DNA of 61,975 nucleotides. Origin: a virus. A program made the translations under genes and the position numbers. Position 1 is the first letter of the stretch, and every line of letters starts with the position of its first letter. Shown here in pieces: positions 1-61,975 of this stretch. The notes beneath the pieces are model-generated. The model was not told where the DNA came from. It did no database searches and was given only the letters and a program-made list of their open reading frames with translations. The stretch is from IMG/VR virus record IMGVR_UViG_3300042807_000369; one strand, written 5' to 3'.

Positions 1-3908
<3,908 letters not shown>

Positions 3909-36100: not shown

Positions 36101-36305
36101 GCTGCTACGCCAACTCCCCCAGGCCCCGTCTACCCGGGGGGTCCCAGGGCTCAACCTTGCCCCCAAACCAGCAGGCCAGCCGGCCGCGTCAAACAACGCC
36201 CCTGCAAACCCTTCCGCGCGGTCTCAGTTCCAAGCGCTGTTCCCAAATGACAGCATTAGTGGTCTGGCTGCGCAGCAGGCACAGCAGCCGCCTGTGCCGC
36301 AGTAA
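33135..36305 (+). CDS. Internal virion protein 4 (largest, 1056 aa)
   Basis: The size and position (last of the structural operon) resemble T7 gp16-class proteins. It has an N-terminal duplicated PEGWEPVA motif and then a Gly-rich hydrophobic segment. I recognised no transglycosylase motif. Confidence 0.5.
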   Translation: MSKNDQIPEGWEPVARPGMSVDSPTSEPLPEGWEPVASPASELAGQAALGAGQGLISATPAVGGAVTGLKLGLPFGPFTAAAGMIGGGIAGYYAGQSAEDAYKSFFPEPSSPDAKVFREAGKTFGGSLPFAAAVPYLPTMTGNRVSRFVTSIRDAAVRNPKTFKTSEVMGALGAGIGAGVAESEDPGAPGTRLAGEVIGGMLSPGRFLINQTGTVIDGLSKIKGNFSEASREARAADRLRTILEEFGEDIPTLIRRLEADMPIDQLSSPGAKRLTPTSAQKTDSLGLTALESALGQTNKKFLGEAREQGRQAAQAYQLLADRLKNIGTPDSLALAAQLQEVRFNSMIDGRLADADRIAALKISKITKDTPQARRTIGETIKEQTELALRDARDYESSLWKDALSQMTRKPVAMPPGVPLNVVSIPTLAPVNTVKDFLDYTTGIGDAVLDKNTPAVVKSIMSKFGVTPDAIKKYKAGRRSEEFALTGQIPARFLPQTKDLDLSELVNYRSNLLTMAREAASKGEASNANFYSTIAQSLMRDLDTVKSPAFDEARTFSKALNDVFTRTFAKTASESADVTRAGAERLPAEILVKRAFGANADVTAMRMNELEDAVKFMSTQYDSAVARFGANSPQAAALKPAADVSRAGAASMADAQQRVLRMGAAAAIDSTFDPATGREVTRLNTTKLKKFVAENKPMLDKLGITPDLNDAVKAENAFRMVQSENSALMKRASDQYAFGQVLKVGNERPSIAIGSMLNGNNPVRDMKNLVKMATDSDNAEAAVRGLKHSLYDYAYTKATGPSGKFSPQAFEDAFFKPLGPNQPSVVNVMRANGLMTLTEMKNLKRLTDPMARIESAMTSGRMLDEIVPGSDAIEELVQRVIGARIGAAAAPGGPGSLIAASAGSKAVRSIFDKMPSMSTVTIMERAAQDPDFMALLLKKGRTETEKLQIARQLHGYMLNAGLNYATYEEPEPTPAPTNQSPLTTQGQAARLLRQLPQAPSTRGVPGLNLAPKPAGQPAASNNAPANPSARSQFQALFPNDSISGLAAQQAQQPPVPQ

Positions 36306-36963
36306 GTCTTGCCATCCACTGGGTCTTGAAGTTTCGCCACTCTCGACCCGTGGTGGTGAACTCCTGCGTGGTGCCGTCCTGCACCGCGATCAGTACGGCG
36401 CCAAAGTCAATGTTGGTGCCGTGCATCCAGTCATGGGCCGTGGCGTAAGCCGCGAGCTGGTGGAAGTAATCGGTGATGTGCTCGTAGCGCTTAGGCTTGA
36501 CGGACTGCTTGAAGTCCACGATGGCCAGCTTGCCACGGTACGTGGCCACCAGGTCAGTGGAGCCAGCATATTGCTGACCGTAATGCAGTGACACCTCCGA
36601 GCCGTGGATCGCGGAGATCGCACCGAAGTACCGGTTGGCCAGGCGAAAGGCCATCTCGTAGCCCCTCAAGGCCAGCCAGTCAGGGCTCACGGCCCACGGC
36701 TCGCCGCTCAAGATGTGCTCCAGCGCCAAGTGCATGTGCGTGCCCACATGCGCTGCTTCCCCTTTTTGCCGATCGGCCTCGGCCTGGCCAACTCTGTCCG
36801 CCCACTCCTTGAGCGCCGCCTTGTCCTTGGTGCGGTCCAAGATGGTTGTCACCGACGGGACACGGCTGCCGTCAGGCAGTGCGTACATGCGGCCGGTGGG
36901 CGCGTCGATGCGCTCGAGCTTTTTGTAGTCAAAGCTCTTTGACCAGGGGATCAGATGAGCCAT
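36256..36963 (-). CDS. PD-(D/E)XK family exonuclease
   Basis: GSTDLVATYRGKLAIVDFKQS (D...(D/E)xK core), upstream GTHMHLALE and downstream QLAAY, at 235 aa. The 3' end overlaps the convergent 33135..36305 by 50 nt. Confidence 0.7.
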   Translation of the reverse strand: MAHLIPWSKSFDYKKLERIDAPTGRMYALPDGSRVPSVTTILDRTKDKAALKEWADRVGQAEADRQKGEAAHVGTHMHLALEHILSGEPWAVSPDWLALRGYEMAFRLANRYFGAISAIHGSEVSLHYGQQYAGSTDLVATYRGKLAIVDFKQSVKPKRYEHITDYFHQLAAYATAHDWMHGTNIDFGAVLIAVQDGTTQEFTTTGREWRNFKTQWMARLTAAQAAAVPAAQPDH

Positions 36964-38402
36964 TGTTTGAAGTCCTCTCCCAGCACCTGGGTTGCGATGT
37001 CGATCTTGCTGCGCAGCGCCTTGACGATCTTCTCGTCCACGGTGCCCACGGCGATCAGGTCAATGTAGGTGACGTTCTTGGTCTGGCCAATGCGGTGTGC
37101 ACGGTCCTCGGACTGCAGGCGCTTTTCCAAGTCAAAGCTGTTGCTGTAGTAGACCATCGTGCTGGCTGCCGTCAGGGTCAGGCCGTAGCCGCCCGTGCTG
37201 GGGTTGCCGACAAAGAAGCGCAGCTCGCTGTCAGGATTCTGAAAGTCATTGACGATGCGCTGGCGCTCCTCCGACTCGGTGTCGCCGTAGTAGGTGGCCA
37301 CACTGTTCATGCCGTACTCCTTGGCCAGGGCCAGCTTGATGGCCTCGATGTCGTGGCGGTAGTTGGCCCAGATGATGATCTTGCCGTCCGTCTCCTCGAC
37401 AACCGCCAGCAACTCGTCCATGCGCTTGTTGGGCAGCTCCACCACAGTGCCGTCATCGAGCTTCACGTGACCGCAGACGATCTGGTGCAGGCGCATGATC
37501 TGGGTGAGGGCGTTCACGGTGCTCACAATACCGCCGTCAATCTGCGCCAGGGCCAGGGCCTTCATTTCGTTGTAGGCCTTGATCTGCTCGGGCGTCAGGT
37601 CCACCTCGCGCTTGACATAGAGCTTGTCTGGCAGGTCCAGGCACTCCTCCTTCTTCACGCGAAACGCGAAGCGGTCGAGCTTTTCCTTAAGCTCGTCCAG
37701 GCGGCGGTAGCCCACGACCTGCTTGAAGCTGTGGGTGTTGAGCTGGCGCTCCACGGTGACGCAGTAGCGGGCCTGGAACACGTAGAAGCTGCTCACATTC
37801 AGGCAACCGTCAGACAAGAATGCACACTGCTGGTAGAGGTCCATCGGGCTTTTGGTGACCGGGGAGCCTGTGAGGATGCGCCTGTACCGCGCGCCACGGC
37901 CCACCTTCTCGGTGTTTTTGCTGCGCGCAGAGGTGTGCGTCTTGATGGTGGTGCTCTCGTCGATCGCCATCATGGCGTTGTGCACCAGCAAGAAACGCTT
38001 GGCAAAGGCCGTGCCCTTGGCAGTGCTGAACGCCTCAACGTTCATGACCAGGATTTTGAGGTCCTCGGTGACGGTGAACAGCTCGTCCATCGCCTTTTGC
38101 TCGGCCTTCCTGGGCGACGGCGACCAGATGGCCATGCGGTGGACGATGTGGTCAGGCAGGTGCTTGGGGATTTCGGTGTCAAACCAGTTGCGGTAGACGC
38201 CCTTTGGCGCTACGATCAAAAACCCGTTGATCTTGCCCTTGTCATAGAGCATGGCCACGTTGTTGATCAGCATGAAGCTCTTGCCTGTGCCCATGTCGGC
38301 GAACAGCGCTGCCACTGGGAAGTCCCAGAAGCGCTGAAGGTAAGCCTGCTGATGTACGAAGGGCTTGTTCTTGAATGGGTAGGTCGATAAAAATTGGTCC
38401 AT
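36951..38402 (-). CDS. SNF2-family helicase/ATPase
   Basis: Motifs DMGTGKS (I), AIDESTTIK (II), LTGSPVTKSPMDLYQQ (III) and QSEDRAHRIGQTKNV (VI). The start is set at ATG 38402 (MDQFLSTYPF...), preceded by agagaga. The track extension to 38486 would consume the divergent promoter region. Confidence 0.9.
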   Translation of the reverse strand: MDQFLSTYPFKNKPFVHQQAYLQRFWDFPVAALFADMGTGKSFMLINNVAMLYDKGKINGFLIVAPKGVYRNWFDTEIPKHLPDHIVHRMAIWSPSPRKAEQKAMDELFTVTEDLKILVMNVEAFSTAKGTAFAKRFLLVHNAMMAIDESTTIKTHTSARSKNTEKVGRGARYRRILTGSPVTKSPMDLYQQCAFLSDGCLNVSSFYVFQARYCVTVERQLNTHSFKQVVGYRRLDELKEKLDRFAFRVKKEECLDLPDKLYVKREVDLTPEQIKAYNEMKALALAQIDGGIVSTVNALTQIMRLHQIVCGHVKLDDGTVVELPNKRMDELLAVVEETDGKIIIWANYRHDIEAIKLALAKEYGMNSVATYYGDTESEERQRIVNDFQNPDSELRFFVGNPSTGGYGLTLTAASTMVYYSNSFDLEKRLQSEDRAHRIGQTKNVTYIDLIAVGTVDEKIVKALRSKIDIATQVLGEDFKQWLI

Positions 38403-38425
38403 GTGTTCTCTCTTTCTTGCAGGGG

Positions 38426-38455
38426 TTGCAACCACCTGAAAAGATAGTGTACACT
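38426..38455 (+). promoter_or_regulatory. Possible promoter of the replication operon (divergent region)
   Basis: TTGCAA-N18-TACACT lies about 30 nt upstream of the AAAGGAGAAA RBS and GTG 38487. Confidence 0.3.
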
Positions 38456-38486
38456 GGTCGCTCGAATTCAGAAAGGAGAAATTCAC

Positions 38487-45856: not shown

Positions 45857-46066
45857 ATGAAACTACGAGAGGAGCTGCGCGCGGTTAAAGAGATTTACCC
45901 CGCGATAGCGGACTTGCTTGAAGAGGCTGCACAGCGCATTGAAGACCAGCGTCAATGGCGATCCGCTTGGTTAAGAGCAGAAAATATAGTAGAGTTGTTG
46001 ACAAGTGAATTGAGTATGCTAAGATCAACGCGTCTACATAGAAAGGAGAAAGAGTGCAATGATTGA
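45857..46066 (+). CDS. Hypothetical helical protein (69 aa)
   Basis: ATG 5 nt after GAGGAG. Confidence 0.55.
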   Translation: MKLREELRAVKEIYPAIADLLEEAAQRIEDQRQWRSAWLRAENIVELLTSELSMLRSTRLHRKEKECND

Positions 46067-53276: not shown

Positions 53277-53495
53277 ATGAAACTCGAAAAGAACATCCCT
53301 TTGCCCGGTGGCGTTGACCCCCGAGAGCGTTACCCCTTCCCAGATATGGCCGTGGGGGATAGCTTTTTGGTGCTAGACGCTACGTGGATCAAGAATTTGC
53401 GCAGCGCGGCGTACATGTACTCGCGCAGGCATCCTGGCACCAGGTTCACGTGCCGCCGGCATGGCGAAGGCTGGCGGCTGTGGAGGGTGGCTTGA
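53277..53495 (+). CDS. Small conserved phage protein preceding terS (72 aa)
   Basis: An internal ATG. The pattern IPLP......RYPFPDMAVGDSF.V........SAAY......PG.RF..R....G.RLWRV is familiar from phage packaging regions. There is no obvious SD, so the start is uncertain. Confidence 0.5.
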   Translation: MKLEKNIPLPGGVDPRERYPFPDMAVGDSFLVLDATWIKNLRSAAYMYSRRHPGTRFTCRRHGEGWRLWRVA

Positions 53496-54166
53496 TGGCT
53501 AGTTTAGACGAGAAGTTTTTGGCGGGAAAACGTCTTGGAGGCCGCCCGGCGTCCGTGGAAGAGCGCATCACTGGCCCGGTTAGACCCTACAAGCCCCGTA
53601 CTTTGTCGCCGCAGGAGTGGAAGTTTGTGGAAGAGTTTGTGGCAGGGGATGGGCATGTCACCCTGAAAGAGGCCGCCCTACGTGCCGGGTATGGCGATAC
53701 GTGGGCCAAGAGCCGCGCACGGGAGTTGACTGACCCAGACAAGAGTCCACACATTGTTGCCGCGATTCAAGAACGGCGCAGGGAATTGGGCGAAAAGTAT
53801 GCCACCACGTTTGAGCGGCATATGCGCGACCTACAAATCATCCGCGATCAGGCCCTAGCTGCGGGGGCTTATGGTGCTGCTGTTCAGGCGGAATACCGCC
53901 GAGGGCAGGCTTTGGGCACGATCTACATCGACCGCAAAGAGATCAGGCACGGCACGATTGACTCCATGAGTAAAGAAGAGGTGCAGCGCAAGTTGGACGA
54001 GATCAAGCGCCTGTATGGGGGCCAAGCCGGGCCCATTGTGGACGTGACCCCCAAGCAGATCGAAGAAGAACCCGAAGAGGAAGAACCAGATGGCCCTGAA
54101 ACCGGAAGCGACCCTGTACAAGAGGGTCAGGGAAAATATCCCAAACTGCCATTTCACCCGGATTGA
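53495..54166 (+). CDS. terS: Terminase small subunit (putative)
   Basis: LSPQEWKFVEEFVAGDGHVTLKEAALRAGYGDTWAKSRARELT matches the HTH pattern of Terminase_2-type small subunits (Lt..q..F..eY...gn...Aa..AGYs...A...a..Ll). It has a coiled-coil middle and an acidic C-terminus. TGATG overlap upstream. Confidence 0.65.
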   Translation: MASLDEKFLAGKRLGGRPASVEERITGPVRPYKPRTLSPQEWKFVEEFVAGDGHVTLKEAALRAGYGDTWAKSRARELTDPDKSPHIVAAIQERRRELGEKYATTFERHMRDLQIIRDQALAAGAYGAAVQAEYRRGQALGTIYIDRKEIRHGTIDSMSKEEVQRKLDEIKRLYGGQAGPIVDVTPKQIEEEPEEEEPDGPETGSDPVQEGQGKYPKLPFHPD

Positions 54167-54509
54167 ATCCCGTGTGAACCTGGGCATCCCGGACTGCCTG
54201 TTGGCATTCCCGCACGGGGTGTTTGTGATGGTGGAGCTCAAGGTCGTCAAGCGGGGCCGCAAAGTGGCTTTATCACCCCATCAGGTGGCTTTTCATATCA
54301 AGCACGCTGACCTTAGATGTCCGACCTACATCTTGGTTCAGTATTACCCGCCGGGGGCTATGCAAGCGAGTAAGTCCGAGTTGCTCCTGTATTGTGGGGA
54401 GCAGGCTTTGGATGTAGCGCGGCTAGGAATTGACACCCCGGCCTTGGCCCGTTGGCCGTGGACGGGGGTGTCGTGGGCTGAGATGCGAAAACATTTAGTG
54501 GACAGTTGA
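54090..54509 (+). CDS. VRR-NUC / PD-(D/E)XK-type nuclease (putative)
   Basis: RIESRVNLGIPDCLLAFPHGVFVMVELKVVKRGRKVALSPHQVAFH fits G.PD....(n)..ElK....(l)s..Q. The only ATG gives a 77-nt overlap with terS. Confidence 0.55.
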   Translation: MALKPEATLYKRVRENIPNCHFTRIESRVNLGIPDCLLAFPHGVFVMVELKVVKRGRKVALSPHQVAFHIKHADLRCPTYILVQYYPPGAMQASKSELLLYCGEQALDVARLGIDTPALARWPWTGVSWAEMRKHLVDS

Positions 54510-54534
54510 CTTGTCTATAAAGTTGTGTTAAGAT
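54506..54534 (+). promoter_or_regulatory. Sigma70-type promoter
   Basis: TTGACT-N17-TAAGAT lies 47 nt upstream of ATG 54581, which has a gaaagagagaaag RBS region. Confidence 0.45.
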
Positions 54535-54580
54535 CATGAACACCTAGACGTCCTAGGCAACATAGAAAGAGAGAAAGACC

Positions 54581-54820
54581 ATGAACTTGACTGAATATGA
54601 TGGGGTTGAAATGCACCCTGTCGCCCGCGAAGTGATAGATGGCATAGAGTGCTTTGAGCAATGCGATCGAGATTACCCCAACATCCATTATTGGAGCGTT
54701 TACCTGCACATGGTAGAGGGGGGGATCACTTGCATTGCCGATTGTCCTAACGAAGAAACCGCCTTGTTTGTTGAACGGGCGGTAGAAGCGCTGCTCTTCC
54801 AAGAAAGGGCAACGAAATGA
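54581..54820 (+). CDS. Hypothetical protein (79 aa)
   Basis: A track ORF downstream of the predicted promoter. Confidence 0.55.
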   Translation: MNLTEYDGVEMHPVAREVIDGIECFEQCDRDYPNIHYWSVYLHMVEGGITCIADCPNEETALFVERAVEALLFQERATK

Positions 54821-55152
54821 AGACATCAGAACTATCAGGTTCCGCCCTTGATTGGGCGGTGCAACAATGTGAGGGCACTCGCAAAGACATCGATTTTGCG
54901 TGGTGGACAGAGGATTACACACCGTCAACTAACTGGGCACAGGGTGGGCCAATCATTGAGCGCGAAGGAATCAATCTGGATAACTACGCCAAAAACCCAC
55001 AATGGAGCGCATGGACACCCGCACCAGATCAAGCAACAGGAGAGGCGCAAGCATACGGCCCCACACCCCTGATCGCAGCCATGCGCTGCTACGTTGCCAG
55101 CAAGCTGGGCGACACCGTAGATGTGCCAAAGGAGATTGATGCGAAGGTCTGA
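54817..55152 (+). CDS. DUF2591 (NinX-like) protein
   Basis: LSGSALDWAVQQCEG...YTPSTNWAQGGPIIEREGI...GPTPLIAAMRCYVASKLGDTVDVP fits the NinX/DUF2591 pattern (LDWAVA...G....Y.PSTDW.Q.GPIIE...I......G.T.L.AAMRC.V.SKLG.EV.VP). Confidence 0.6.
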   Translation: MKTSELSGSALDWAVQQCEGTRKDIDFAWWTEDYTPSTNWAQGGPIIEREGINLDNYAKNPQWSAWTPAPDQATGEAQAYGPTPLIAAMRCYVASKLGDTVDVPKEIDAKV

Positions 55153-55296
55153 CCGTCTGGCGCTTAACCGCGCCCTAAACAAGCCGCCCCCTAAGCCCCC
55201 TGACGACAAAACACAAAAAGGTCTGATTGTTCGTCTGTTAGGCTTTTGGTTGTTCCATAAACTACTTGGAGGCGATAGATAGGTTTTGAACGTAAG

Positions 55297-55320
55297 AACG
55301 GCCCCTGAAGGGGCCGTTTT
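55297..55320. terminator. Bidirectional intrinsic terminator between convergent units
   Basis: AACGGCCCC-tgaa-GGGGCCGTT followed by TTTA, located between 54817..55152 (+) and 55345..55533 (-). Confidence 0.7.
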
Positions 55321-55344
55321 ACTTGAGGCAGGGGTTAGGGCTGT

Positions 55345-55533
55345 CTACTGCTTAATTACGGGCTTAATGCGTAATTCGCTACGGTCTACGGCTATTCCCG
55401 CGCGGGAGCATTCAAGCAAGTGGTCGTCAATTCCCTGTTGCGCTTGTAGGGCAGTAGAAAACGTCAATTCCTTTTCGTCCTCAGTCCACACGTTTTCCCA
55501 CCCATAAATGAATCGGGTCTGCACCTCAAACAC
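55345..55533 (-). CDS. Island ORF 17 (62 aa), hypothetical
   Basis: A track ORF with a GTG start that overlaps the upstream stop by 8 nt. It is the last gene before the terminator. Confidence 0.5.
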   Translation of the reverse strand: MFEVQTRFIYGWENVWTEDEKELTFSTALQAQQGIDDHLLECSRAGIAVDRSELRIKPVIKQ

Positions 55534-55705
55534 GGTTGGCCTCCGTGTCTATTTCGATGGACTCAATGTCCCATGCCCCATCATCCCGGTAGTAGTCTTG
55601 GTCAACCTGCTTCCAAGCCAAAGCCTCGGCCTCATCCTCATTCTCGGCCTCAATGGTGAGGTTGATGTAGGAGGTGCGCTTCAATTCGATCTGGTAAGTT
55701 TTCAT
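55526..55705 (-). CDS. Island ORF 16 (59 aa), acidic; paralogue of ORF 15
   Basis: Hand-translated as MKTYQIELKRTSYINLTIEAENEDEAEALAWKQVDQDYYRDDGAWDIESIEIDTEANRV. The start sits in the conserved GAGACAGCATGA junction. Confidence 0.5.
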   Translation of the reverse strand: MKTYQIELKRTSYINLTIEAENEDEAEALAWKQVDQDYYRDDGAWDIESIEIDTEANRV

Positions 55706-55875
55706 GCTGTCTCTTCAATCAGTTCAATGTCGCAAACATCGCCCTCACACTGCACACAGGCTCGGGTTGGGTCGAACCAGTCAAGGGCCGTGGCCCCCGC
55801 CTCTTCTTTGCTTGAGGCCTCCACCTCGATGGTCTGCCAATAGGACATCACCACTTCAACTTTGTATTTACTCAT
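55702..55875 (-). CDS. Island ORF 15 (57 aa)
   Basis: Hand-translated as MSKYKVEVVMSYWQTIEVEASSKEEAGATALDWFDPTRACVQCEGDVCDIELIEETA. It has a conserved junction at both ends. Confidence 0.5.
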   Translation of the reverse strand: MSKYKVEVVMSYWQTIEVEASSKEEAGATALDWFDPTRACVQCEGDVCDIELIEETA

Positions 55876-56051
55876 GCTGTCTCTCCTTGTTTAAACACCT
55901 CTTCAGTGTTAAGGTCAACGAACGGGAACTCATCATTCAAAAACGAATTGTCCACATTGATGAGTTCAAGCCTATTGCCTGCACTCCAAACAAATACATT
56001 CGCATCAAGGGGCAATGCACTCAATGCAGCGAGTAGGTCTTGTACTTTCAT
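55872..56051 (-). CDS. Island ORF 14 (59 aa)
   Basis: Hand-translated as MKVQDLLAALSALPLDANVFVWSAGNRLELINVDNSFLNDEFPFVDLNTEEVFKQGETA. ATGA coupling at both ends. Confidence 0.5.
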   Translation of the reverse strand: MKVQDLLAALSALPLDANVFVWSAGNRLELINVDNSFLNDEFPFVDLNTEEVFKQGETA

Positions 56052-56221
56052 TTACTCCGTCCTTCCTTACGGCCTTGTTCAAAAAGGCGCACATAGTCTT
56101 CGCGCTTCTGCGACTGCAACCCCTTTAAACTTTCGTGAAAGGTCATCCACAACCTTAGGGCACGGGGCCCCCTGGCTGTTTCGTAGCGGTAGCCAAGATT
56201 GATTAGTTCTGATTCGGTCAT
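56048..56221 (-). CDS. Island ORF 13 (57 aa), basic
   Basis: Hand-translated as MTESELINLGYRYETARGPRALRLWMTFHESLKGLQSQKREDYVRLFEQGRKEGRSK. ATGA coupling. Confidence 0.45.
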   Translation of the reverse strand: MTESELINLGYRYETARGPRALRLWMTFHESLKGLQSQKREDYVRLFEQGRKEGRSK

Positions 56222-56364
56222 GACAAGGCCCAGATAGTCAAGATGTACATGAAGATGGTAGTCAGAATTGCCACCATGAAGTCAAAGGCGGCTTGTGCCC
56301 GCTTCTGTCTGCGTTCCAGAGTGAACTGTTCACGCATAGTGAGGGTGTGCTTGTAATATTTCAT
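56218..56364 (-). CDS. Island ORF 12 (48 aa), single-TM peptide
   Basis: Hand-translated as MKYYKHTLTMREQFTLERRQKRAQAAFDFMVAILTTIFMYILTIWALS. Conserved junction at the start. Confidence 0.45.
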   Translation of the reverse strand: MKYYKHTLTMREQFTLERRQKRAQAAFDFMVAILTTIFMYILTIWALS

Positions 56365-56561
56365 GCTGTTTCCCCTTTATCAACTGACACCTCTTCATTG
56401 TAGGCAAAAGTGCTTGCAACAGGGTCTTCCATCTCTTCCCCATTTTTATAAACAGCTATCCATAAGCCCTCATTGACAGACAGTATGCGGACAGAAAAGC
56501 CCTCAACGTCAAACCATGCTGCTCCCTCTTCCAACACATAATCATCATCTTTTAAGTTCAT
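56361..56561 (-). CDS. Island ORF 11 (66 aa)
   Basis: A track ORF that ends ...KGETA in the conserved junction. Confidence 0.55.
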   Translation of the reverse strand: MNLKDDDYVLEEGAAWFDVEGFSVRILSVNEGLWIAVYKNGEEMEDPVASTFAYNEEVSVDKGETA

Positions 56562-56740
56562 GCTGTTTCTCCCCGTTGTTCGCGCAGCGCGAGTTGCTCA
56601 ATCATGTCATTACCGCGTTCAATCAGAGTGTCTTCAATGTGTCTGCTATCGACATATTGAAGTTCTTCAGGACTCCAGATAACCACAAGAAACCCTGCAT
56701 CTCGCATTTGGTATAGTGCGTTAATCCATTCTTGTTTCAT
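56558..56740 (-). CDS. Island ORF 10 (60 aa)
   Basis: A track ORF that ends ...RGETA in the conserved junction. Confidence 0.55.
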   Translation of the reverse strand: MKQEWINALYQMRDAGFLVVIWSPEELQYVDSRHIEDTLIERGNDMIEQLALREQRGETA

Positions 56741-56940
56741 GATGTAACCTTTCTTAATGAAAATGTGTAGCTAGTCCCGTCAAGGTGATAATCCCGGCTT
56801 TCGCAATTGATATAGCGGCATATACGCAGTTTCCCGCCAATACCAAATTTAACTCTAGCCTGACGTAAGGCCTCCCGCCATGTAGTCGCTAAGACCTCTT
56901 TATGCCATGTTCCGTGATCTGAAAATAAGAAGTAGGTCAT
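56737..56940 (-). CDS. Island ORF 9 (67 aa)
   Basis: A track ORF with ATGA coupling. Confidence 0.55.
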   Translation of the reverse strand: MTYFLFSDHGTWHKEVLATTWREALRQARVKFGIGGKLRICRYINCESRDYHLDGTSYTFSLRKVTS

Positions 56941-57233
56941 GCTGTATCCCCTAATTGAATGTATTCCAAAACCTGTTTCATACCGTCAGCAGACACTGAC
57001 CATTCAGGGACACCTCCATCAAGGCAAAGCCCCCTTCCGTATCCCCCATTCTCTGTCAGGGTAGAAACATAGTATCTAGATACAAATTGCCCCCTTCCCA
57101 TAAAGTCAGGGAAGTCATAGCGGCTGTCATAGAACTCCACCATTGGGGCGCTGTCATTTGTAAGACAATCTTTGCGCCCGTACTTGTCTCCCGTATTGAC
57201 AATGCGGACATTAAATTTTTCAATTTTTATCAT
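56937..57233 (-). CDS. Island ORF 8 (98 aa), conserved small protein
   Basis: A track ORF. The pattern VEFYDSRYDF....GRGQFVSRYYVSTL......GLCLDGGVPEW recalls a family seen on phages and plasmids. Confidence 0.6.
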   Translation of the reverse strand: MIKIEKFNVRIVNTGDKYGRKDCLTNDSAPMVEFYDSRYDFPDFMGRGQFVSRYYVSTLTENGGYGRGLCLDGGVPEWSVSADGMKQVLEYIQLGDTA

Positions 57234-57460
57234 GCTGTCTTCTCCAATAATTCCCGTAAGTTTTTTGCGGTATGACGATAGGTTTTCCCGTTATGACAAG
57301 CAGTTACACCCCCTTTGTCATTCGTTATGACGTAGACACGCCTGATGTTTCTTCCGTCTCCCCGTATATCGGCAAAGTACGTGTACCCCTTCATAGGGTA
57401 TGACACACTATTACGTGTGTTAACAGTCTCACAAAGATTGTCAATGGTTGTTTTACGCAT
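57230..57460 (-). CDS. Island ORF 7 (76 aa)
   Basis: The start is set at ATG 57460, which follows AAGAGG and lies 4 nt after the upstream stop. The track extension to 57565 would overlap its neighbour by 100 nt. Confidence 0.55.
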   Translation of the reverse strand: MRKTTIDNLCETVNTRNSVSYPMKGYTYFADIRGDGRNIRRVYVITNDKGGVTACHNGKTYRHTAKNLRELLEKTA

Positions 57461-57464
57461 GGTG

Positions 57465-57815
57465 TCAACCTCTTGGCCCATATGAACGAGATTCATCAGT
57501 GGCGCAATTTTTGGCCTCTTCTCCCCGTTCAATTGCATCAAAGACAATTGACTTGTCATAGTCACTTGTCACACTTGGACAGGGATAATGTCCTGATAGA
57601 CACTCGAAACACTCCTGAAAAAACTGTACATAGTCATACGCGGGCCCATTACGTTTTTCCCACTCTTCTAGCGTCATAGTGTCTTCAATTTGGTCTTCAA
57701 GTACTCTAACCTTTTCTTCCAATTCCACAATTTGGGCCAATAGGTCAGCCGTGCGAACGTCTCCCGTTAGATACGCGAGTTGTTCTTGGTCTTGAATGGT
57801 GTATGCGGCATTCAT
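57465..57815 (-). CDS. Island ORF 6 (116 aa), acidic coiled-coil N-terminus, Cys-containing C-terminus
   Basis: A track ORF with AAGGAG RBS. Confidence 0.6.
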   Translation of the reverse strand: MNAAYTIQDQEQLAYLTGDVRTADLLAQIVELEEKVRVLEDQIEDTMTLEEWEKRNGPAYDYVQFFQECFECLSGHYPCPSVTSDYDKSIVFDAIERGEEAKNCATDESRSYGPRG

Positions 57816-58288
57816 GTCAATGCTCCTTCTTCCGTAAATTCATAGTCATTTGCCCGTATTGATTCGACAATTGCTTCATCACTAAAGTAGTAGTCAATGT
57901 CCTTTGACACTGTTGACACAAATGCTTCAATTGCAGTCTCAAAGGCGTGATTTGCGTCTCCTGTCCTTTTGAATTCATTAAAAAAGGTGTAACGTAGGTC
58001 ACAATCAAAGCAAAACCCTGTCGGCATTGCTTCCCTGTCAAATGAAGACAGTTTTACCCCTCTAAAGTGTCTTGTTGTTGCGTCTGTAGAGACAAATGCG
58101 CGATAGTCATTCGACAGGCAATAGTCTGTAACTTTTACGTTAAATTCATCACAAAAAGCCCTTAGACTGTCTTTGCATTCAGTAAACCAAGGGTATTTAG
58201 TTATTTCCCGCATTTTTTCTATAGCCTTTTCTTTTGCCCCTCCCGGCAATTCATCAAAGGCGTAAATTGTGGTTTCGATTGTTCGCAT
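57812..58288 (-). CDS. Island ORF 5 (158 aa), conserved phage/plasmid-type protein
   Basis: The start is set at ATG 58288, after GAGGGG. The N-terminal YAFDELPGGAKEKAIEKMRE and C-terminal IRANDYEFTEEG motifs recall a family common on mobile elements, including leading regions. I cannot name it securely. Confidence 0.55.
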   Translation of the reverse strand: MRTIETTIYAFDELPGGAKEKAIEKMREITKYPWFTECKDSLRAFCDEFNVKVTDYCLSNDYRAFVSTDATTRHFRGVKLSSFDREAMPTGFCFDCDLRYTFFNEFKRTGDANHAFETAIEAFVSTVSKDIDYYFSDEAIVESIRANDYEFTEEGALT

Positions 58289-58298
58289 GGTGCGCCCC

Positions 58299-58559
58299 TC
58301 AAATTGATTTGACGTTAAAAAACCGCGTTTCTTCGTCTTCGTAACCCGATAGAAACGCACAAATACACGCATTCAAGGCCCTATACTTTGACAAGTCTCC
58401 CGTGTCAAAGTCTTTGCGAAACCTAAGGCCCATTTCCCGTGAGACTTTCCGAATAGCCCCTAATTCACTCTTCGCGTGAACCTTGAAACGGGTTACCCAT
58501 GAATAATTTGCTTCGTCTCCAAAAGTGTCTGTCACTTCGATATAAAAAATGTTTTTCAT
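58299..58559 (-). CDS. Island ORF 4 (86 aa), conserved small protein
   Basis: A track ORF. The motif EVTDTFGDEANYSWVTRF is familiar from mobile-element small proteins. Confidence 0.6.
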   Translation of the reverse strand: MKNIFYIEVTDTFGDEANYSWVTRFKVHAKSELGAIRKVSREMGLRFRKDFDTGDLSKYRALNACICAFLSGYEDEETRFFNVKSI

Positions 58560-58753
58560 AATGTCACTCCTTGAATGAATCGGTTAGGTTCAATACAGAT
58601 ACACACTATGCGTTCAAATTTGGGCGCATCAACCGTGTGCACAATTACGTTTCTTCCCGTGTGTGTGTAACTTTCCACACGTACGGTTTTCCCGTGTACT
58701 TGAATGATTTGGCCAATTTTGTATTGGGCCTTAGGTATAAATGCGAATCTCAT
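58556..58753 (-). CDS. Island ORF 3 (65 aa)
   Basis: A track ORF with ATGA coupling. Confidence 0.55.
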   Translation of the reverse strand: MRFAFIPKAQYKIGQIIQVHGKTVRVESYTHTGRNVIVHTVDAPKFERIVCICIEPNRFIQGVTL

Positions 58754-59022
58754 AGGTTCACCTCTACAATTGTTTTCTGGTTTCCATGAACAACGTACGT
58801 TGTTCCAATGTTAGAAAAAATGGCGCAATACACTCTTCGCCATTTTTGGTCAATGGTTCGCACCATGTAGCGTGTAGGTATCTTTGCCCCATAGCCACTA
58901 GCGGTATAGGACAGGCCCCTTTTTTGCCACTCCAACTCATGAACCCGTACGGAAGGCCCATTACATGGAAGGCGAACCAATTGCCCCATAAGGGGCCCTT
59001 CTTTGACAGTTTCAAAATTCAT
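58750..59022 (-). CDS. Island ORF 2 (90 aa), conserved small protein
   Basis: A track ORF. The motif TASGYGAKIPTRYMV......WRRVYCAIFSNIGT is familiar from phage and plasmid genes. Confidence 0.6.
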   Translation of the reverse strand: MNFETVKEGPLMGQLVRLPCNGPSVRVHELEWQKRGLSYTASGYGAKIPTRYMVRTIDQKWRRVYCAIFSNIGTTYVVHGNQKTIVEVNL

Positions 59023-59033
59023 GGCGTACCTCT

Positions 59034-59324
59034 TTAACGTAGTTCGCGAGACGGGATATATCCATACTCCCGCATGAATTCGTTAACCGTTAGATTTTTG
59101 GCCTTGTAAGTTTCGCCACACTTCCAAGATTCGACAGCATTGGCCCCATATCGCGGTTTAGTGGTGCGGATGTTGATGTAACGCATCTCGGGACGGCTAT
59201 GCGCTGCCCGTTCAATTTGTTCCGCTTGCTGCCAAGTCTCGCATTCAATAATCAATTTATTGGTCTTGCATTGGGCAGCGCCCCAACCAGACATAAATTT
59301 GTCGGTCATAGTTACGTAGAGCAT
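59034..59324 (-). CDS. Island ORF 1 (96 aa), first gene of the inverted island
   Basis: A track ORF with AGGAGAA RBS. It carries the motif TMTDKFMSGWGAA. Confidence 0.6.
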   Translation of the reverse strand: MLYVTMTDKFMSGWGAAQCKTNKLIIECETWQQAEQIERAAHSRPEMRYINIRTTKPRYGANAVESWKCGETYKAKNLTVNEFMREYGYIPSRELR

Positions 59325-59351
59325 GAGGGTTCTCCTGTTGTTGAGGCCTCT

Positions 59352-59381
59352 ACCTTAAATCAACTCATGTCAACTTGTCAA
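59352..59381 (-). promoter_or_regulatory. Possible promoter of the inverted island
   Basis: The minus strand reads TTGACA-N18-TAAGGT about 30 nt upstream of ATG 59324. The -35 is part of a GTTGA(C/T) triplet (gagTTGACaagTTGACatgagTTGAT). Confidence 0.35.
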
Positions 59382-59469
59382 CTCTTTTTGTGAGGGTATC
59401 CGAAAATTTTTCTAACTATGCGTTTTTTGCATAACCTTCCCTTCCCGGTTTTTTCTAAACCCGTCTCGC

Positions 59470-59709
59470 GGTTCGCGGTTGGTTCACCTTTGAAGTGTGT
59501 GGCGTGTATCACGTTACATGGCGCATGGTTCGCGGTTCGCGCATGGTGTAGCGTGTTTCGCGTCTCCCGGTTCGCGGTTCGCGTCTCCCGGTTCGCGATT
59601 CCTGGAGGGCTTGCGTACGGTTCGCGGTTCGCGGTTTACGCATGGTGTCTCGCGTCTCATGGTGCATGGTGCATGGTGCATGGTGCATGGTTCGCGGGCC
59701 CCGGTTCAT
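59470..59709. repeat. Dense heptamer arrays: GGTTCGC (9 perfect copies, 4 tandem doublets) and CATGGTG (5 tandem)
   Basis: GGTTCGC at 59470, 59527/59534, 59569/59576, 59590, 59619/59626 and 59689, plus variants at 59481, 59633 and 59703. CATGGTG x4 plus CATGGTT lie at 59658-59692. CGTCTC(C/G)CGGTTCGC recurs. The region is non-coding and lies between divergent units. Confidence 0.9.
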
Positions 59710-59806
59710 GCGCCCCGGCGCGTAAGTGAGTACCCACTCACCCCGGGGCCAGAAAAAAGGGCCCTGTCGCGGGCTGCGCGGGCATTTGCCCGATTTCACA
59801 CGCTAG

Positions 59807-61412: not shown

Positions 61413-61975
61413 ATGAACAGAGTGTATTCAACAGCTGAGATGAATGCTCCGGGGATCAGTGAGAGCACCCGTAGACAGATGGAGCAGAATAATGCTGCTG
61501 TGCGCGCTTTTCAACAACAGCAGGCTGCGGAAAAGGCTTTAAGAGATGCTCGGAATGCAGCAAGTGCTGCTTTGACTGCAAGAAGACCAATTACAAAAAC
61601 GCCGATTGTAAGGACGCCGATTGTAAGGACGCCGATTGTAAGGACGCCGATTGTAAGGACGCCTGCTCCGACTTCAAACCGGCCTGGGCAGGTTAATTCA
61701 AATATTCCTGCAGGAACGTCAGCTCTGCCTTCGTACACTCCGCCTTCGTACACTCCGCCTTCGTACACTCCGCCTTCAACCCTGCCAGGACAAGTAAATT
61801 CGGGCAGCGGGTCGACGATTGGCACATCCATGGGTGATACGTTCCGGTTGCCTACGGGCAGCGGGTCGACGATTGGCACATCCATGGGTGATACGTTCCG
61901 GTTGCCTACGGGCAGCGGGTCGACGATTGGCACATCCATGGGTGATACGTTCCGGTTGCCTACGGGCAGCGGGTC
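61413..61975 (+). CDS. Giant repeat-rich protein, 5' portion (runs off the window end, continues at nt 1)
   Basis: The ATG lies 5 nt after AGGAG and 38 nt after the terL stop. The frame is open for 187 codons to the window end. The sequence is MNRVYSTAEMNAPGISESTRRQMEQNNAAVRAFQQQQAAEKALRDARNAASAALTARRPITK followed by PIVRT x4, PSYTP x3 and then the 18-aa repeat. It is absent from the track because it has no stop. Confidence 0.65.
   Translation, partial: MNRVYSTAEMNAPGISESTRRQMEQNNAAVRAFQQQQAAEKALRDARNAASAALTARRPITKTPIVRTPIVRTPIVRTPIVRTPAPTSNRPGQVNSNIPAGTSALPSYTPPSYTPPSYTPPSTLPGQVNSGSGSTIGTSMGDTFRLPTGSGSTIGTSMGDTFRLPTGSGSTIGTSMGDTFRLPTGSG
61599..61658 (+). repeat. In-frame 15-nt tandem repeat acgccgattgtaagg (TPIVR) x4
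   Basis: Four identical units. Confidence 0.95.
61728..61772 (+). repeat. In-frame 15-nt tandem repeat ccttcgtacactccg (PSYTP) x3
   Basis: Three identical units. Confidence 0.95.
61803..61975 (+). repeat. In-frame 54-nt tandem repeat, 3.2 copies (same array as 1..325)
   Basis: Units start at 61803, 61857, 61911 and 61965, and all are the D-variant. Confidence 0.95.

What the first reader, a model, noticed from the sequence alone, without database searches (positions are those of the whole stretch)
55345..59324. Inverted, AT-richer island of 17 small ORFs (48-158 aa) between terS and terL: candidate anti-defence/host-interaction arsenal
Seen: 4 kb on the minus strand with its own promoter-like element (59352-59381) and a terminator (55297-55320). 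It is visibly lower in GC (roughly mid-40s % by eye against mid/upper-50s elsewhere). The genes are packed by ATGA overlaps and include a 48-aa TM peptide. Several products carry motifs I associate with small proteins of plasmids, ICEs and phages: EVTDTFGDEANYSWV, TASGYG.KIPT, GQFVSRYYVSTL and IRANDYEFTEEG. None has an assignable enzymatic domain. Inference: this is a horizontally acquired, independently transcribed accessory island. By analogy with early or leading-region gene sets of other mobile elements, it is a plausible anti-restriction or anti-defence cluster. The evidence is contextual only.
Basis: partly seen in the sequence, partly recalled or inferred. Interest (0 to 1): 0.65.

Follow-up and report, generated by a model that had tools for sequence, protein, structure and literature searches.

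The report
Swapped-in phage accessory gene array
A virus of freshwater bacteria has replaced the usual genes next to its DNA-packaging gene with a foreign, backwards-facing string of 17 tiny genes of unknown function; it is a real accessory gene array, but nothing yet shows that it disarms host defences.

Summary
There are 17 minus-strand ORFs at 55345-59324. GC is 45.4% against 55.6% elsewhere, the lowest 4-kb window in the genome. Twelve of 16 junctions are ATGA overlaps. The promoter-like element, the hairpin and the four quoted motifs are all present.

The window is a circular ~62-kb genome of an uncultured freshwater phage (nearest GenBank record: DSL-LC04). In 35 of the 37 related genomes compared, the terS-terL interval holds forward-strand genes that relatives share, including DUF7227 and DUF932. 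It holds no island gene in 36 of them. Here a ~4.4-kb module (about 55279-59732) replaces that set.

Related arrays, carrying homologues of six island genes, sit divergent from terL in a lower-GC sister clade (40-53% GC, mostly 40-48%). That fits the island's composition.

Three near-identical variants of the island (90-99% nt identity) differ by whole-gene cassettes exchanged at a conserved junction, GAnACAGCATGA. pN/pS is 0.12-0.14, so the ORFs are real genes.

No product matches Pfam, NCBIfam, PADLOC or PDB. Two confident models have no PDB fold match. The case for an early, host-directed role is positional only.

Verdict: a horizontally acquired phage accessory region. An anti-defence role is plausible but not shown.

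The parts
55279..59732 (-). Whole exchanged module: hairpin, 17 genes, promoter-like site and most of a repeat block
   Evidence: blastn to backbone relatives L012, L011 and L026 ends at 54575-55278 and resumes at 59688-59733. GC 45.4% against 55.6%.
55297..55320 (.). GC-rich hairpin between convergent NinX-like gene (+) and isl17 (-); probable bidirectional terminator
   Evidence: dG -20.4 kcal/mol, z -3.58 on the minus strand; -23.5, z -2.55 on the plus strand.
55345..55533 (-). isl17, 62 aa, acidic, GTG start
   Evidence: Conserved in L103. Weak homologue in L161, 41%.
55526..55705 (-). isl16, 59 aa, acidic; paralogue of isl15
   Evidence: Sub-threshold Pfam ChaB 1e-4 and DpnD/PcfM 6e-3. 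isl15/isl16 blastp 6e-4. 38-42% homologues in arrays L144, L151, L165, L180.
55702..55875 (-). isl15, 57 aa, acidic; variable cassette, replaced by a 92-aa gene in L008/L009 and (together with isl14) in L103
55872..56051 (-). isl14, 59 aa, acidic
   Evidence: 47-60% homologues in sister-clade terL-divergent arrays. Weak hit in the DSL-LC04 terS-terL gap.
56048..56221 (-). isl13, 57 aa, basic
   Evidence: 36-49% homologues, usually directly after isl12 homologues in sister-clade arrays.
56218..56364 (-). isl12, 48 aa, basic N-terminus and C-terminal hydrophobic segment (by eye; no TM predictor run)
   Evidence: Sequence. 33-50% homologues in sister-clade arrays.
56361..56561 (-). isl11, 66 aa, very acidic (net -12)
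   Evidence: Found only in the island variants.
56558..56740 (-). isl10, 60 aa; variable cassette, absent from L008/L009 and L103/L104
56737..56940 (-). isl09, 67 aa, basic; variable cassette, absent from L008/L009, present in L103/L104
   Evidence: 42% homologue in L208.
56937..57233 (-). isl08, 98 aa (GQFVSRYY domain); variable cassette, absent from L103/L104
   Evidence: 1,696 clusters at 50% identity, standing alone or as a domain of larger proteins. Absent from Pfam, PHROGs and PDB. Homologues in L073, Ruegeria phage V10, plasmid pALIDE01 and a bacterial island.
57230..57460 (-). isl07, 76 aa, basic (the open frame extends to a GTG at 57565, overlapping isl06)
   Evidence: Called as 76 aa in L008/L009. 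Homologue is the last gene of Rhodobacter phage RcAquaphina. 63-70% in L189 and L222.
57465..57815 (-). isl06, 116 aa, net -15; helical-looking N-terminal half and Cys/His-rich C-terminal half (CFEC...H..C)
   Evidence: 45-49% homologues next to isl02 homologues; TerL in four of these loci (L213, L215, L216, L218) is 90% identical to that of the P22-portal phage L102; also L220.
57812..58288 (-). isl05, 158 aa, acidic; conserved PTGFCFDCD and YEFTExG motifs
   Evidence: 193 homologues, nearly all 155-170 aa, none with an informative name. AF2 pLDDT 96. No PDB fold match. Only uncharacterised phage proteins in BFVD. PHROG 10310 and 5162.
58299..58559 (-). isl04, 86 aa
   Evidence: PHROG 22729, N-terminal part only. 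44-72% homologues in small-gene blocks in L100, L114, L187, L238, L250.
58556..58753 (-). isl03, 65 aa, basic
   Evidence: Found only in the island variants.
58750..59022 (-). isl02, 90 aa, basic, mostly beta-strand
   Evidence: At least 417 homologues. PHROG 3436. AF2 pLDDT 90, no PDB match. Second annotated gene of Ghunavirus Kompost-2 and first forward-strand gene of Laurelin, both upstream of the RNAP gene. Gene 3, 1.1 kb from the left end of Muntaha.
59034..59324 (-). isl01, 96 aa, basic; promoter-proximal variable cassette, replaced by a 108-aa strongly acidic protein in L103/L104
   Evidence: PHROG 5423, 5e-20. Homologues in ~150-166-kb Bacillus phages and in Ghunavirus Mudajogi gene 3. 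Replacement seen.
59352..59381 (-). Sigma-70-like promoter candidate, TTGACA-N18-TAAGGT, within three spaced TTGA(C/T) copies
   Evidence: Only such match on the minus strand of the window. Sequence. Not called by the stricter scan. About 90% conserved in L103/L104.
59460..59700 (+). Iteron-like repeat block between the island promoter and terL: GGTTCGCG x9 and CATGGTG x5
   Evidence: 9 of 10 genome copies of GGTTCGCG lie here. TRF and repeat families. Not shared with backbone relatives; L012 has a different repeat at the same place.

Best explanation
The island is a horizontally acquired accessory-gene array. It occupies the accessory locus between terS and terL of a ~62-kb freshwater phage that looks virulent.

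Shown:
- A ~4.4-kb module (hairpin, 17 genes, promoter-like site, repeat block) replaces the forward-strand gene set that most relatives keep there (DUF7227, DUF932 and small genes).
- The genes are real and under purifying selection.
- At least ten of the 17 belong to gene families found in other phages. Two of these families (isl02, isl05) sit again and again in short blocks of small genes transcribed away from the terminase gene, in at least four phage backbones.
- A lower-GC sister clade carries arrays with homologues of six island genes at the same place.
- The array evolves by gain, loss and swapping of single-gene cassettes. In the case examined closely, the isl09-isl10 deletion, the breakpoints fall in the conserved Shine-Dalgarno/ATGA junction GAnACAGCATGA.

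Inferred:
- The array is one operon. Host RNA polymerase reads it from the sigma-70-like promoter at 59381-59352, independently of the terL-led structural gene operon, and the hairpin at 55297-55320 ends it. Translation is coupled gene to gene through the ATGA overlaps.
- Its products are small binding proteins made early in infection that act on host or competitor targets. Some of them probably inhibit host defences.
For: Replacement and foreign origin:
- 344 IMG/VR relatives were found; the 80 kept have TerL 78-93% identical.
- In 35 of the 37 related genomes compared, the terS/p139-terL interval is GC-richer than its flanks. Its genes are mostly on the forward strand and largely shared among relatives (median pairwise tblastx coverage typically 0.4-0.7).
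- Genes shared at that locus include DUF7227 (31 of 38 intervals) and DUF932 (22 of 38). None has a homologue in the window.
- No island gene is present in those relatives, except an isl08 homologue in L073.
- Breakpoints are at about 55278 and 59688-59733.
- The island is 10 GC points below the genome. Comparable arrays elsewhere average only 1.4 points below their flanks, so low GC reflects the donor and is not a general property of such arrays.

Source pool:
- Viral contigs with TerL about 52-56% identical and 40-53% GC (mostly 40-48%) carry homologues of isl05, isl08, isl12, isl13, isl14 and isl16 in one block divergent from terL.

Recurrent architecture:
- In 87 of 88 loci of the isl05 and isl02 families where a TerL could be detected, it lies upstream on the opposite strand.
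- The backbones include a SU10-portal type, an HK97-capsid type, a P22-portal type and the window's own TerL type.

Cassette turnover:
- L008/L009 and L103/L104 are 90-99% identical to the island in shared segments, mostly 96-99%.
- They differ by presence or absence of isl08, isl09 and isl10, by an extra 91-aa gene, and by replacement of isl01, isl14 and isl15.
- The two L008 alignment blocks flanking the isl09-isl10 deletion overlap by 18 nt at the conserved junction.
- Six of the seven genome matches to GAnACAGCATGA are island junctions; 1.24 matches are expected by chance.

Real genes: pN/pS 0.12-0.14.

Transcription unit: promoter-like site, hairpin, Shine-Dalgarno sequences and ATGA overlaps.

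Early, host-directed role (context only):
- The isl02 and isl01 homologues lie within about 1.5 kb of the left end of three Ghunavirus genomes, upstream of the RNAP gene.
- The isl02 homologue is gene 3, 1.1 kb from the left end of Streptomyces phage Muntaha, with a second match elsewhere in that record.
- Fast-evolving phage accessory regions are reported to be rich in counter-defence genes (bioRxiv 10.1101/2023.04.06.535777).
Against: There are no expression data, so the timing is unknown.

The -10 hexamer is weak (TAAGGT), and the stricter promoter scan did not call the site.

A search for sigma-70-like sites upstream of 29 comparable arrays was inconclusive: 7 forward against 2 reverse at 9 or more of 12 matches.

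No product resembles any characterised anti-defence or defence protein. The two confident models have no PDB neighbour.

The proportion of acidic proteins is not unusual: 9 of 17 have pI below 5.5, against 41% of other small ORFs in the genome.

Some homologues in cultured phages sit at the right end of the record and are transcribed outward, so position near a genome end does not always mean early.

No dedicated anti-defence HMM set was available.
Confidence: 0.55

Rival explanations
1. The array serves competition between phages or general host take-over, not inhibition of host immunity. Examples would be superinfection exclusion, or shut-off of host transcription, division or metabolism.
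For: The architecture and turnover are the same as for the best explanation. A membrane-anchored 48-aa peptide (isl12), conserved with its neighbour isl13 in sister-clade arrays, would suit an envelope-directed function. By my own recollection, not checked here, T7 class I genes include host shut-off functions as well as the anti-restriction protein Ocr.
Against: Nothing separates this from the anti-defence reading. No homology to known exclusion or shut-off proteins was found.
Confidence: 0.25
2. The array has an ordinary packaging-related or regulatory role tied to the neighbouring terminase genes, for example accessory factors for pac-site recognition or regulators of late transcription.
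For: The isl02 and isl05 families are closely linked to terminase genes across backbones. An iteron-like repeat block lies between the island and terL.
Against: The content is not conserved, even between genomes that share about 93%-identical flanks. Most relatives of this lineage package without any of these genes. Homologues also occur far from terminase genes, in the left-end regions of T7-like phages. Essential packaging factors would not turn over one cassette at a time.
Confidence: 0.08
3. It is a moron-type lysogenic-conversion cassette, expressed from a prophage to benefit the host.
For: It has its own promoter-like site and terminator, a GC content unlike its surroundings, and sits between genes of a phage operon. 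Cassettes carrying isl05 or isl02 homologues occur in phages with ERF, RusA, NinB and YbcO genes, as in lambdoid phages.
Against: The closest annotated relative has DNA polymerase I, primase and helicase genes and no annotated integrase or repressor. The isl05 family is almost absent from bacterial genomes: 2 hits in 185,579 species genomes against 244 in viral contigs. That argues against prophage carriage.
Confidence: 0.05
4. The ORFs are not genes: chance open frames in an AT-rich spacer, or decaying remnants.
For: Seven of the 17 have no homologue outside near-identical variants, or only a single weak one (isl03, isl09, isl10, isl11, isl15, isl17; isl06 only at 40-49%).
Against: pN/pS is 0.12-0.14. 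Every ORF has a Shine-Dalgarno sequence, and 12 of 16 junctions are ATGA. Large families exist for isl02, isl05 and isl08. The AF2 models are confident.
Confidence: 0.02

Closest known systems
Phage accessory regions (ARs) / hyperplastic regions, as defined by Silas et al., bioRxiv 10.1101/2023.04.06.535777
   Same: A hotspot between core genes (terS/p139 and terL) whose small genes differ between related genomes, move horizontally and turn over quickly.
   Different: None of the 17 genes belongs to a characterised accessory-gene family. In this lineage the locus is usually stable, with shared DUF7227/DUF932 genes, and was replaced wholesale here. The array is inverted relative to the rest of the genome.
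Morons (Hendrix/Juhala concept; from my own knowledge, not checked in the library)
   Same: An independent promoter-like site and terminator, a GC content unlike the surroundings, and a position between genes of a phage operon.
   Different: It is a 17-gene, translationally coupled operon, not one or two genes. It is a replacement, not an insertion. The phage looks virulent, so expression from a prophage is unlikely.
Early or 'first-in' gene sets: the T7-like class I region, the inward-reading early right arm of mycobacteriophage L5 (own knowledge), and plasmid leading-region anti-defence islands (PMC11541004)
   Same: Strings of small, co-oriented, mostly uncharacterised genes behind a host-type promoter. 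The isl01 and isl02 families lie at the left end of three T7-like phages, upstream of the RNAP gene. The island faces away from terL, as an operon reading inward from a genome end next to the terminase genes would.
   Different: The physical genome ends and the order of DNA entry are unknown for this phage. No known anti-defence gene is present. Leading regions are defined by oriT and single-strand promoters, which do not apply here.
Integron cassette arrays
   Same: Promoterless small ORFs in one orientation behind a single upstream promoter, with gain, loss and swapping of cassettes at a conserved junction.
   Different: No recombinase or nuclease domain was found among the island's 17 products, and there are no attC-like inverted repeats. 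The junction is a Shine-Dalgarno/ATGA overlap, so exchange is presumably by homologous or microhomology recombination between co-infecting phages.

Membership tests
Phage accessory region (hypervariable locus between core genes) | Flanked by core genes conserved across related genomes | tested here: met
   terS/p139 on one side (51-90% aa identity, mostly 60-89%) and terL on the other (78-93%) in the 36 IMG/VR loci that span the interval.
Phage accessory region (hypervariable locus between core genes) | Gene content differs between otherwise similar genomes | tested here: met
   The window differs from 36 of 37 relatives. Three cassette variants share up to 99% nt identity.
Anti-defence island | Contains at least one gene homologous to a characterised anti-defence protein | tested here: not met
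   No significant hit in Pfam-A, NCBIfam or PDB sequences, including PDB profile searches for isl02, isl05 and isl08. Foldseek against PDB was negative for isl05 and isl02. No dedicated anti-defence HMM set was available, and 15 folds were not modelled.
Anti-defence island | Products inhibit a host defence system | not testable with these tools
   Needs plating or co-expression assays.
Anti-defence island | Expressed at the onset of infection | not testable with these tools
   Only a sigma-70-like site and the left-end position of homologues in T7-like phages.
Moron | Own promoter and terminator flanking the inserted gene(s) | tested here: inconclusive
   The hairpin is strong. The promoter has a perfect -35 hexamer but a weak -10, and the tool scan missed it.
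Moron | Base composition distinct from the neighbouring phage genes | tested here: met
   45.4% against 55.6% GC.
Moron | Carried by a temperate phage and expressed from the prophage | tested here: not met
   No integrase or repressor is annotated in the syntenic relative DSL-LC04. The isl05 family is nearly absent from bacterial genomes. Expression itself was not testable.
Integron | IntI tyrosine recombinase adjacent to the array | tested here: not met
   No recombinase domain in any island product or in the flanking genes scanned.
Integron | attC recombination sites (imperfect inverted repeats) between cassettes | tested here: not met
   Junctions are 4-nt ATGA overlaps with no intergenic space. 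No such inverted repeats were found.
Known defence systems (PADLOC) | Match to a defence-system protein model | tested here: not met
   No hits for ten of the island proteins (isl01-isl09 and isl11) at E <= 0.01.

The most novel reading that the evidence does not exclude
Small-gene arrays that face away from the terminase gene may be the phage counterpart of plasmid leading regions.

On this reading they lie at the last-packaged, first-ejected end of the virion DNA, next to the packaging site. Host RNA polymerase reads them inward before the rest of the genome has entered. They are a shared, cassette-shuffled pool of first-response proteins, with folds not yet in the PDB, used by unrelated phage backbones. 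In this island lineage the cassettes are shuffled at a conserved Shine-Dalgarno/ATGA junction.

The window would then be a case where one such array was transplanted into a lineage that normally lacks it.
Probability: 0.2. Interest if true: 0.75.

Novelty: new member of a known kind. Interest (0 to 1): 0.45.

Why it matters
It supplies a clean, bounded set of candidate accessory proteins for functional screens. All 17 are under purifying selection. Three belong to large uncharacterised families: isl08 with 1,696 clusters at 50% identity, isl02 with at least 417 clusters at 90% identity, and isl05 with 193. Two have confident folds with no neighbour in the PDB.

The comparison also turned up a simple rule that may help find such genes in uncultured phages. 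Look for the short block of small genes transcribed away from the terminase gene. That rule held in 87 of 88 loci across at least four backbones.

The near-identical variants show accessory genes being exchanged one at a time, and in the case resolved, at a translational-coupling junction. If the array proves to be the first DNA expressed on entry, it would extend the leading-region logic of plasmids to tailed phages. None of this is established yet.

Tried and rejected
- Nucleotide searches of the island found nothing: megablast against GenBank phages, PLSDB plasmids and complete E. coli genomes.
- A concatenated 1,355-aa query against PDB sequences gave no hit at E <= 10.
- A concatenate of isl01, isl02, isl04 and isl08 in the big protein search returned only four isl08-domain proteins, so one of three searches was largely wasted.
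- Domain fusions of isl08 were uninformative: one ankyrin fusion, nine with no domain.
- Charge or DNA-mimic idea: the proportion of acidic proteins is not unusual.
- Autonomous mobile element: there are no flanking repeats and no recombinase, transposase or nuclease domain among the island products.
- RNA genes: no Rfam family and no tRNA in the window.
- A promoter motif shared with other arrays: inconclusive.
- The exact junction motif is a trait of this island lineage only. It is not found in sister-clade arrays.
- The three novel cassettes seen in the variants (108, 91 and 92 aa) have no Pfam hit; the 108-aa protein also has no PDB sequence hit.

Full report

Yes. The ORF list shows 17 tiled minus-strand ORFs from 59324 down to 55345. 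I call them isl01 (promoter-proximal) to isl17.
- Sizes are 48-158 aa. isl05 is 158 aa from the ATG at 58288. isl07 is 76 aa from 57460, which is how it is called in near-identical contigs.
- The island is 45.4% GC and the rest of the genome 55.6%. The lowest 4-kb window of the whole sequence starts at 55501.
- Twelve of 16 junctions are ATGA overlaps, and almost every start has a GGAG-type ribosome-binding site.
- All four quoted peptide motifs are present, as is the 48-aa peptide with a hydrophobic C-terminus.
- The promoter-like element is TTGACA-N18-TAAGGT at 59381->59352. It is the only match to that relaxed pattern on the minus strand of the window, but the stricter scan missed it.
- The hairpin at 55297-55320 is stable (dG -20.4 kcal/mol, z -3.6). 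It lies between convergent genes, so it is best read as bidirectional.
- There are no RNA genes.
- The ORFs are genes. Against three natural variants, pN/pS is 0.12-0.14.

**2. What genome is this?**

The window is a circular contig. Its 58-nt terminal overlap lies inside a tandem repeat.
- Almost all genes are on the plus strand.
- TerL is 77% identical to that of Phage DSL-LC04, a metagenome-assembled freshwater phage (PMC10611076). More distant TerL relatives are pelagiphages of the HTVC023P/027P type.
- DSL-LC04 is syntenic. It has DNA polymerase I, primase and helicase genes and no annotated integrase, so the lineage looks virulent.
- IMG/VR holds 344 relatives. The 80 best kept have TerL 78-93% identical.

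**3. The island is a replacement at a normally stable locus.**

I compared the terS/p139-terL interval in 36 IMG/VR loci that span it, plus DSL-LC04.
- The interval is 3.4-6.2 kb long. It is GC-richer than its flanks in 35 of the 37 genomes, and its genes are mostly on the forward strand.
- Most relatives share much of its content (median pairwise tblastx coverage typically 0.4-0.7).
- Shared genes include DUF7227 (31 of 38 intervals) and DUF932 (22 of 38).
- None of these genes has a homologue anywhere in the window.
- None of the island genes occurs in the relatives. The one exception is an isl08 homologue in L073, which has its own inverted cassette at this locus.
- DNA homology to the closest backbones stops at about 55278 and resumes at 59688-59733.
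- The exchanged module is therefore about 4.4 kb. It comprises the hairpin, the 17 genes, the promoter-like site and most of a GGTTCGCG/CATGGTG repeat block.

**4. Where did it come from?**

The isl05 family supplies the trail.
- It has 193 protein clusters, nearly all 155-170 aa and none with an informative name. It was found in 244 viral contigs but in only 2 of 185,579 species genomes.
- Many of its loci belong to a sister clade with TerL about 52-56% identical to the window's and 40-53% GC (mostly 40-48%).
- In those loci the isl05 homologue shares one strand block, divergent from terL, with homologues of isl12, isl13, isl14, isl08 and isl16.
- Arrays elsewhere average only 1.4 GC points below their own flanks.
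- So the 10-point deficit here points to a lower-GC donor of this kind. It is not a general property of such arrays.

**5. A recurrent architecture.**

- In other phages, isl05 and isl02 homologues usually lie in short blocks of small genes (2-21 genes for the isl05 family) with opposite-strand genes on one or both sides.
- A small panel of TerL queries detected a TerL in 88 loci of these two families. In 87 of them it lay upstream on the opposite strand, that is, divergent from the block.
- The backbones include a SU10-portal type, an HK97-capsid type, a P22-portal type and the window's own TerL type.
- The loci are not independent samples. The count of independent lineages is about four to six, but the geometry is consistent across them.

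**6. How the array evolves.**

Four short contigs from four samples are 90-99% identical to the island in shared segments, mostly 96-99%. L103 also carries the same terS-side backbone at 93% identity. The variants differ by whole genes:
- L008/L009 lack isl09 and isl10 and have a 92-aa gene in place of isl15.
- L103/L104 lack isl08 and isl10.
- L103/L104 have a strongly acidic 108-aa gene in place of isl01 and an extra 91-aa gene.
- L103 also has the 92-aa gene in place of isl14 and isl15.
- The two L008 alignment blocks that flank the isl09-isl10 deletion overlap by 18 nt at the junction.
- The junction motif GAnACAGCATGA has 7 matches in the genome, against 1.24 expected. Six of them are island junctions.
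- The novel cassettes in the variants have near-identical junctions, GG(A/G)GAnA(C/A)AGC followed by ATG.
- The exact motif is confined to this island lineage.
- The simplest reading is recombination between co-infecting relatives at the shared translational-coupling junctions. Nothing integron-like is present.

**7. What do the proteins do?**

This is unknown.
- Nothing significant was found in Pfam-A, NCBIfam, PADLOC or PDB sequences.
- PHROGs gives only 'unknown function' families for isl01, isl02, isl04, isl05, isl15 and isl16.
- isl15 and isl16 are weak paralogues with sub-threshold DpnD/PcfM and ChaB similarity.
- isl05 models at pLDDT 96 and isl02 at pLDDT 90. Neither has a PDB neighbour. 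isl05 matches only uncharacterised phage proteins in BFVD.
- isl08 is a domain family of 1,696 clusters at 50% identity that is absent from Pfam, PHROGs and PDB. It stands alone or forms part of larger proteins. It also occurs on a conjugative plasmid and in a bacterial island beside an Eco57I-like restriction gene.

Context leans toward early, host-directed roles but is mixed.
- The isl02 homologue is the second annotated gene of Ghunavirus Kompost-2 and the first forward-strand gene of Laurelin. The isl01 homologue is the third gene of Mudajogi. All three lie upstream of the RNA polymerase gene.
- The isl02 homologue is gene 3, 1.1 kb from the left end of Streptomyces phage Muntaha.
- Against this, the isl07 and isl08 homologues at the right ends of two other phage records are transcribed outward.

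**8. Judgement.**

- What the island is: a horizontally acquired, cassette-shuffled accessory array that replaced the lineage's usual locus content. This is well supported (about 0.85).
- How it works: a host-RNAP-driven, translationally coupled operon of small binding proteins acting early on host or competitor targets. This is inference (about 0.5 for early expression).
- That at least one product is an anti-defence protein is plausible (about 0.4) but has no direct support.
Its functional label remains a hypothesis. Its 'plasmid/ICE' association holds only for isl08.

**9. Comparison with known kinds.**

- It fits the concept of phage accessory regions.
- It shares the promoter/terminator/composition signature of morons, but not their size or their link to lysogeny.
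- In layout it resembles early 'first-in' gene sets and plasmid leading regions, but the entry order of this genome is unknown.
- It is therefore a new member of a known kind. It comes with a useful by-product: a positional rule for finding such arrays, and several large families that are absent from the reference libraries searched here.

Noticed in passing
window 59460-59700: Nine of the genome's ten GGTTCGCG copies, all in one orientation, plus CATGGTG x5, lie between the island's promoter-like site and terL. Relative L012 has a different repeat at the same place (TGGTCCGCGCTACC x2.8). This could be a TerS-binding/pac site or an origin.
   Followed up: partly
window 61574-61975 and 1-~120: Perfect tandem repeats follow terL: two 15-nt arrays (x4.3 and x3.7) and a 54-nt unit (x3.2, continuing across the contig join). 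The 58-nt terminal overlap that shows circularity lies inside the 54-nt repeat. At 18 codons per unit, it may encode an N-terminal repeat of the 1,295-aa ORF at 21-3908.
   Followed up: no
window 53384-54509: The terS ORF overlaps the next gene by 77 nt. That gene is 139 aa, matches PHROG 2165 (annotated DNA helicase) and, more weakly, PHROG 93 (endonuclease). The same out-of-frame overlap is kept in the relatives that span both genes.
   Followed up: partly
L012 6548-8349 (and most other relatives): The genes that the island displaced include DUF7227 (229 aa) and DUF932 (337 aa) proteins, both uncharacterised. They are shared by most relatives at this locus and absent from the window.
   Followed up: partly
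L073 6519-9331: One relative has a different inverted cassette at the same locus, at native GC. It includes an isl08 homologue (55%), a 200-aa ORF whose sequence looks by eye like a DNA cytosine methyltransferase, and a 254-aa ORF. Neither of the last two was checked.
   Followed up: no
L103 299-625 (also in L104): In two island variants the promoter-proximal gene isl01 is replaced by a 108-aa strongly acidic protein with no Pfam or PDB match. It is a candidate DNA mimic on composition alone.
   Followed up: partly
window 56937-57233 (isl08) and P0245-P0393: The GQFVSRYY domain defines a family of 1,696 clusters at 50% identity. It is missing from Pfam-A, PHROGs v4 and PDB. It stands alone or is fused to other regions (one ankyrin fusion; one member has a ~145-aa insertion). 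It occurs in phages, plasmids and bacterial islands.
   Followed up: partly
window 36256-38486: This is the only other substantial minus-strand block in the genome. By position it appears to correspond to the divergently oriented HepA-like helicase and PD-(D/E)XK nuclease pair of DSL-LC04.
   Followed up: no
window 45998-46025 and 54506-54534: Two plus-strand sigma-70-like sites (TTGACAAGT...TAAGAT and TTGACTTGT...TAAGAT) resemble the island's TTGACAAGT...TAAGGT. This may be a shared promoter type, although the island is foreign.
   Followed up: no
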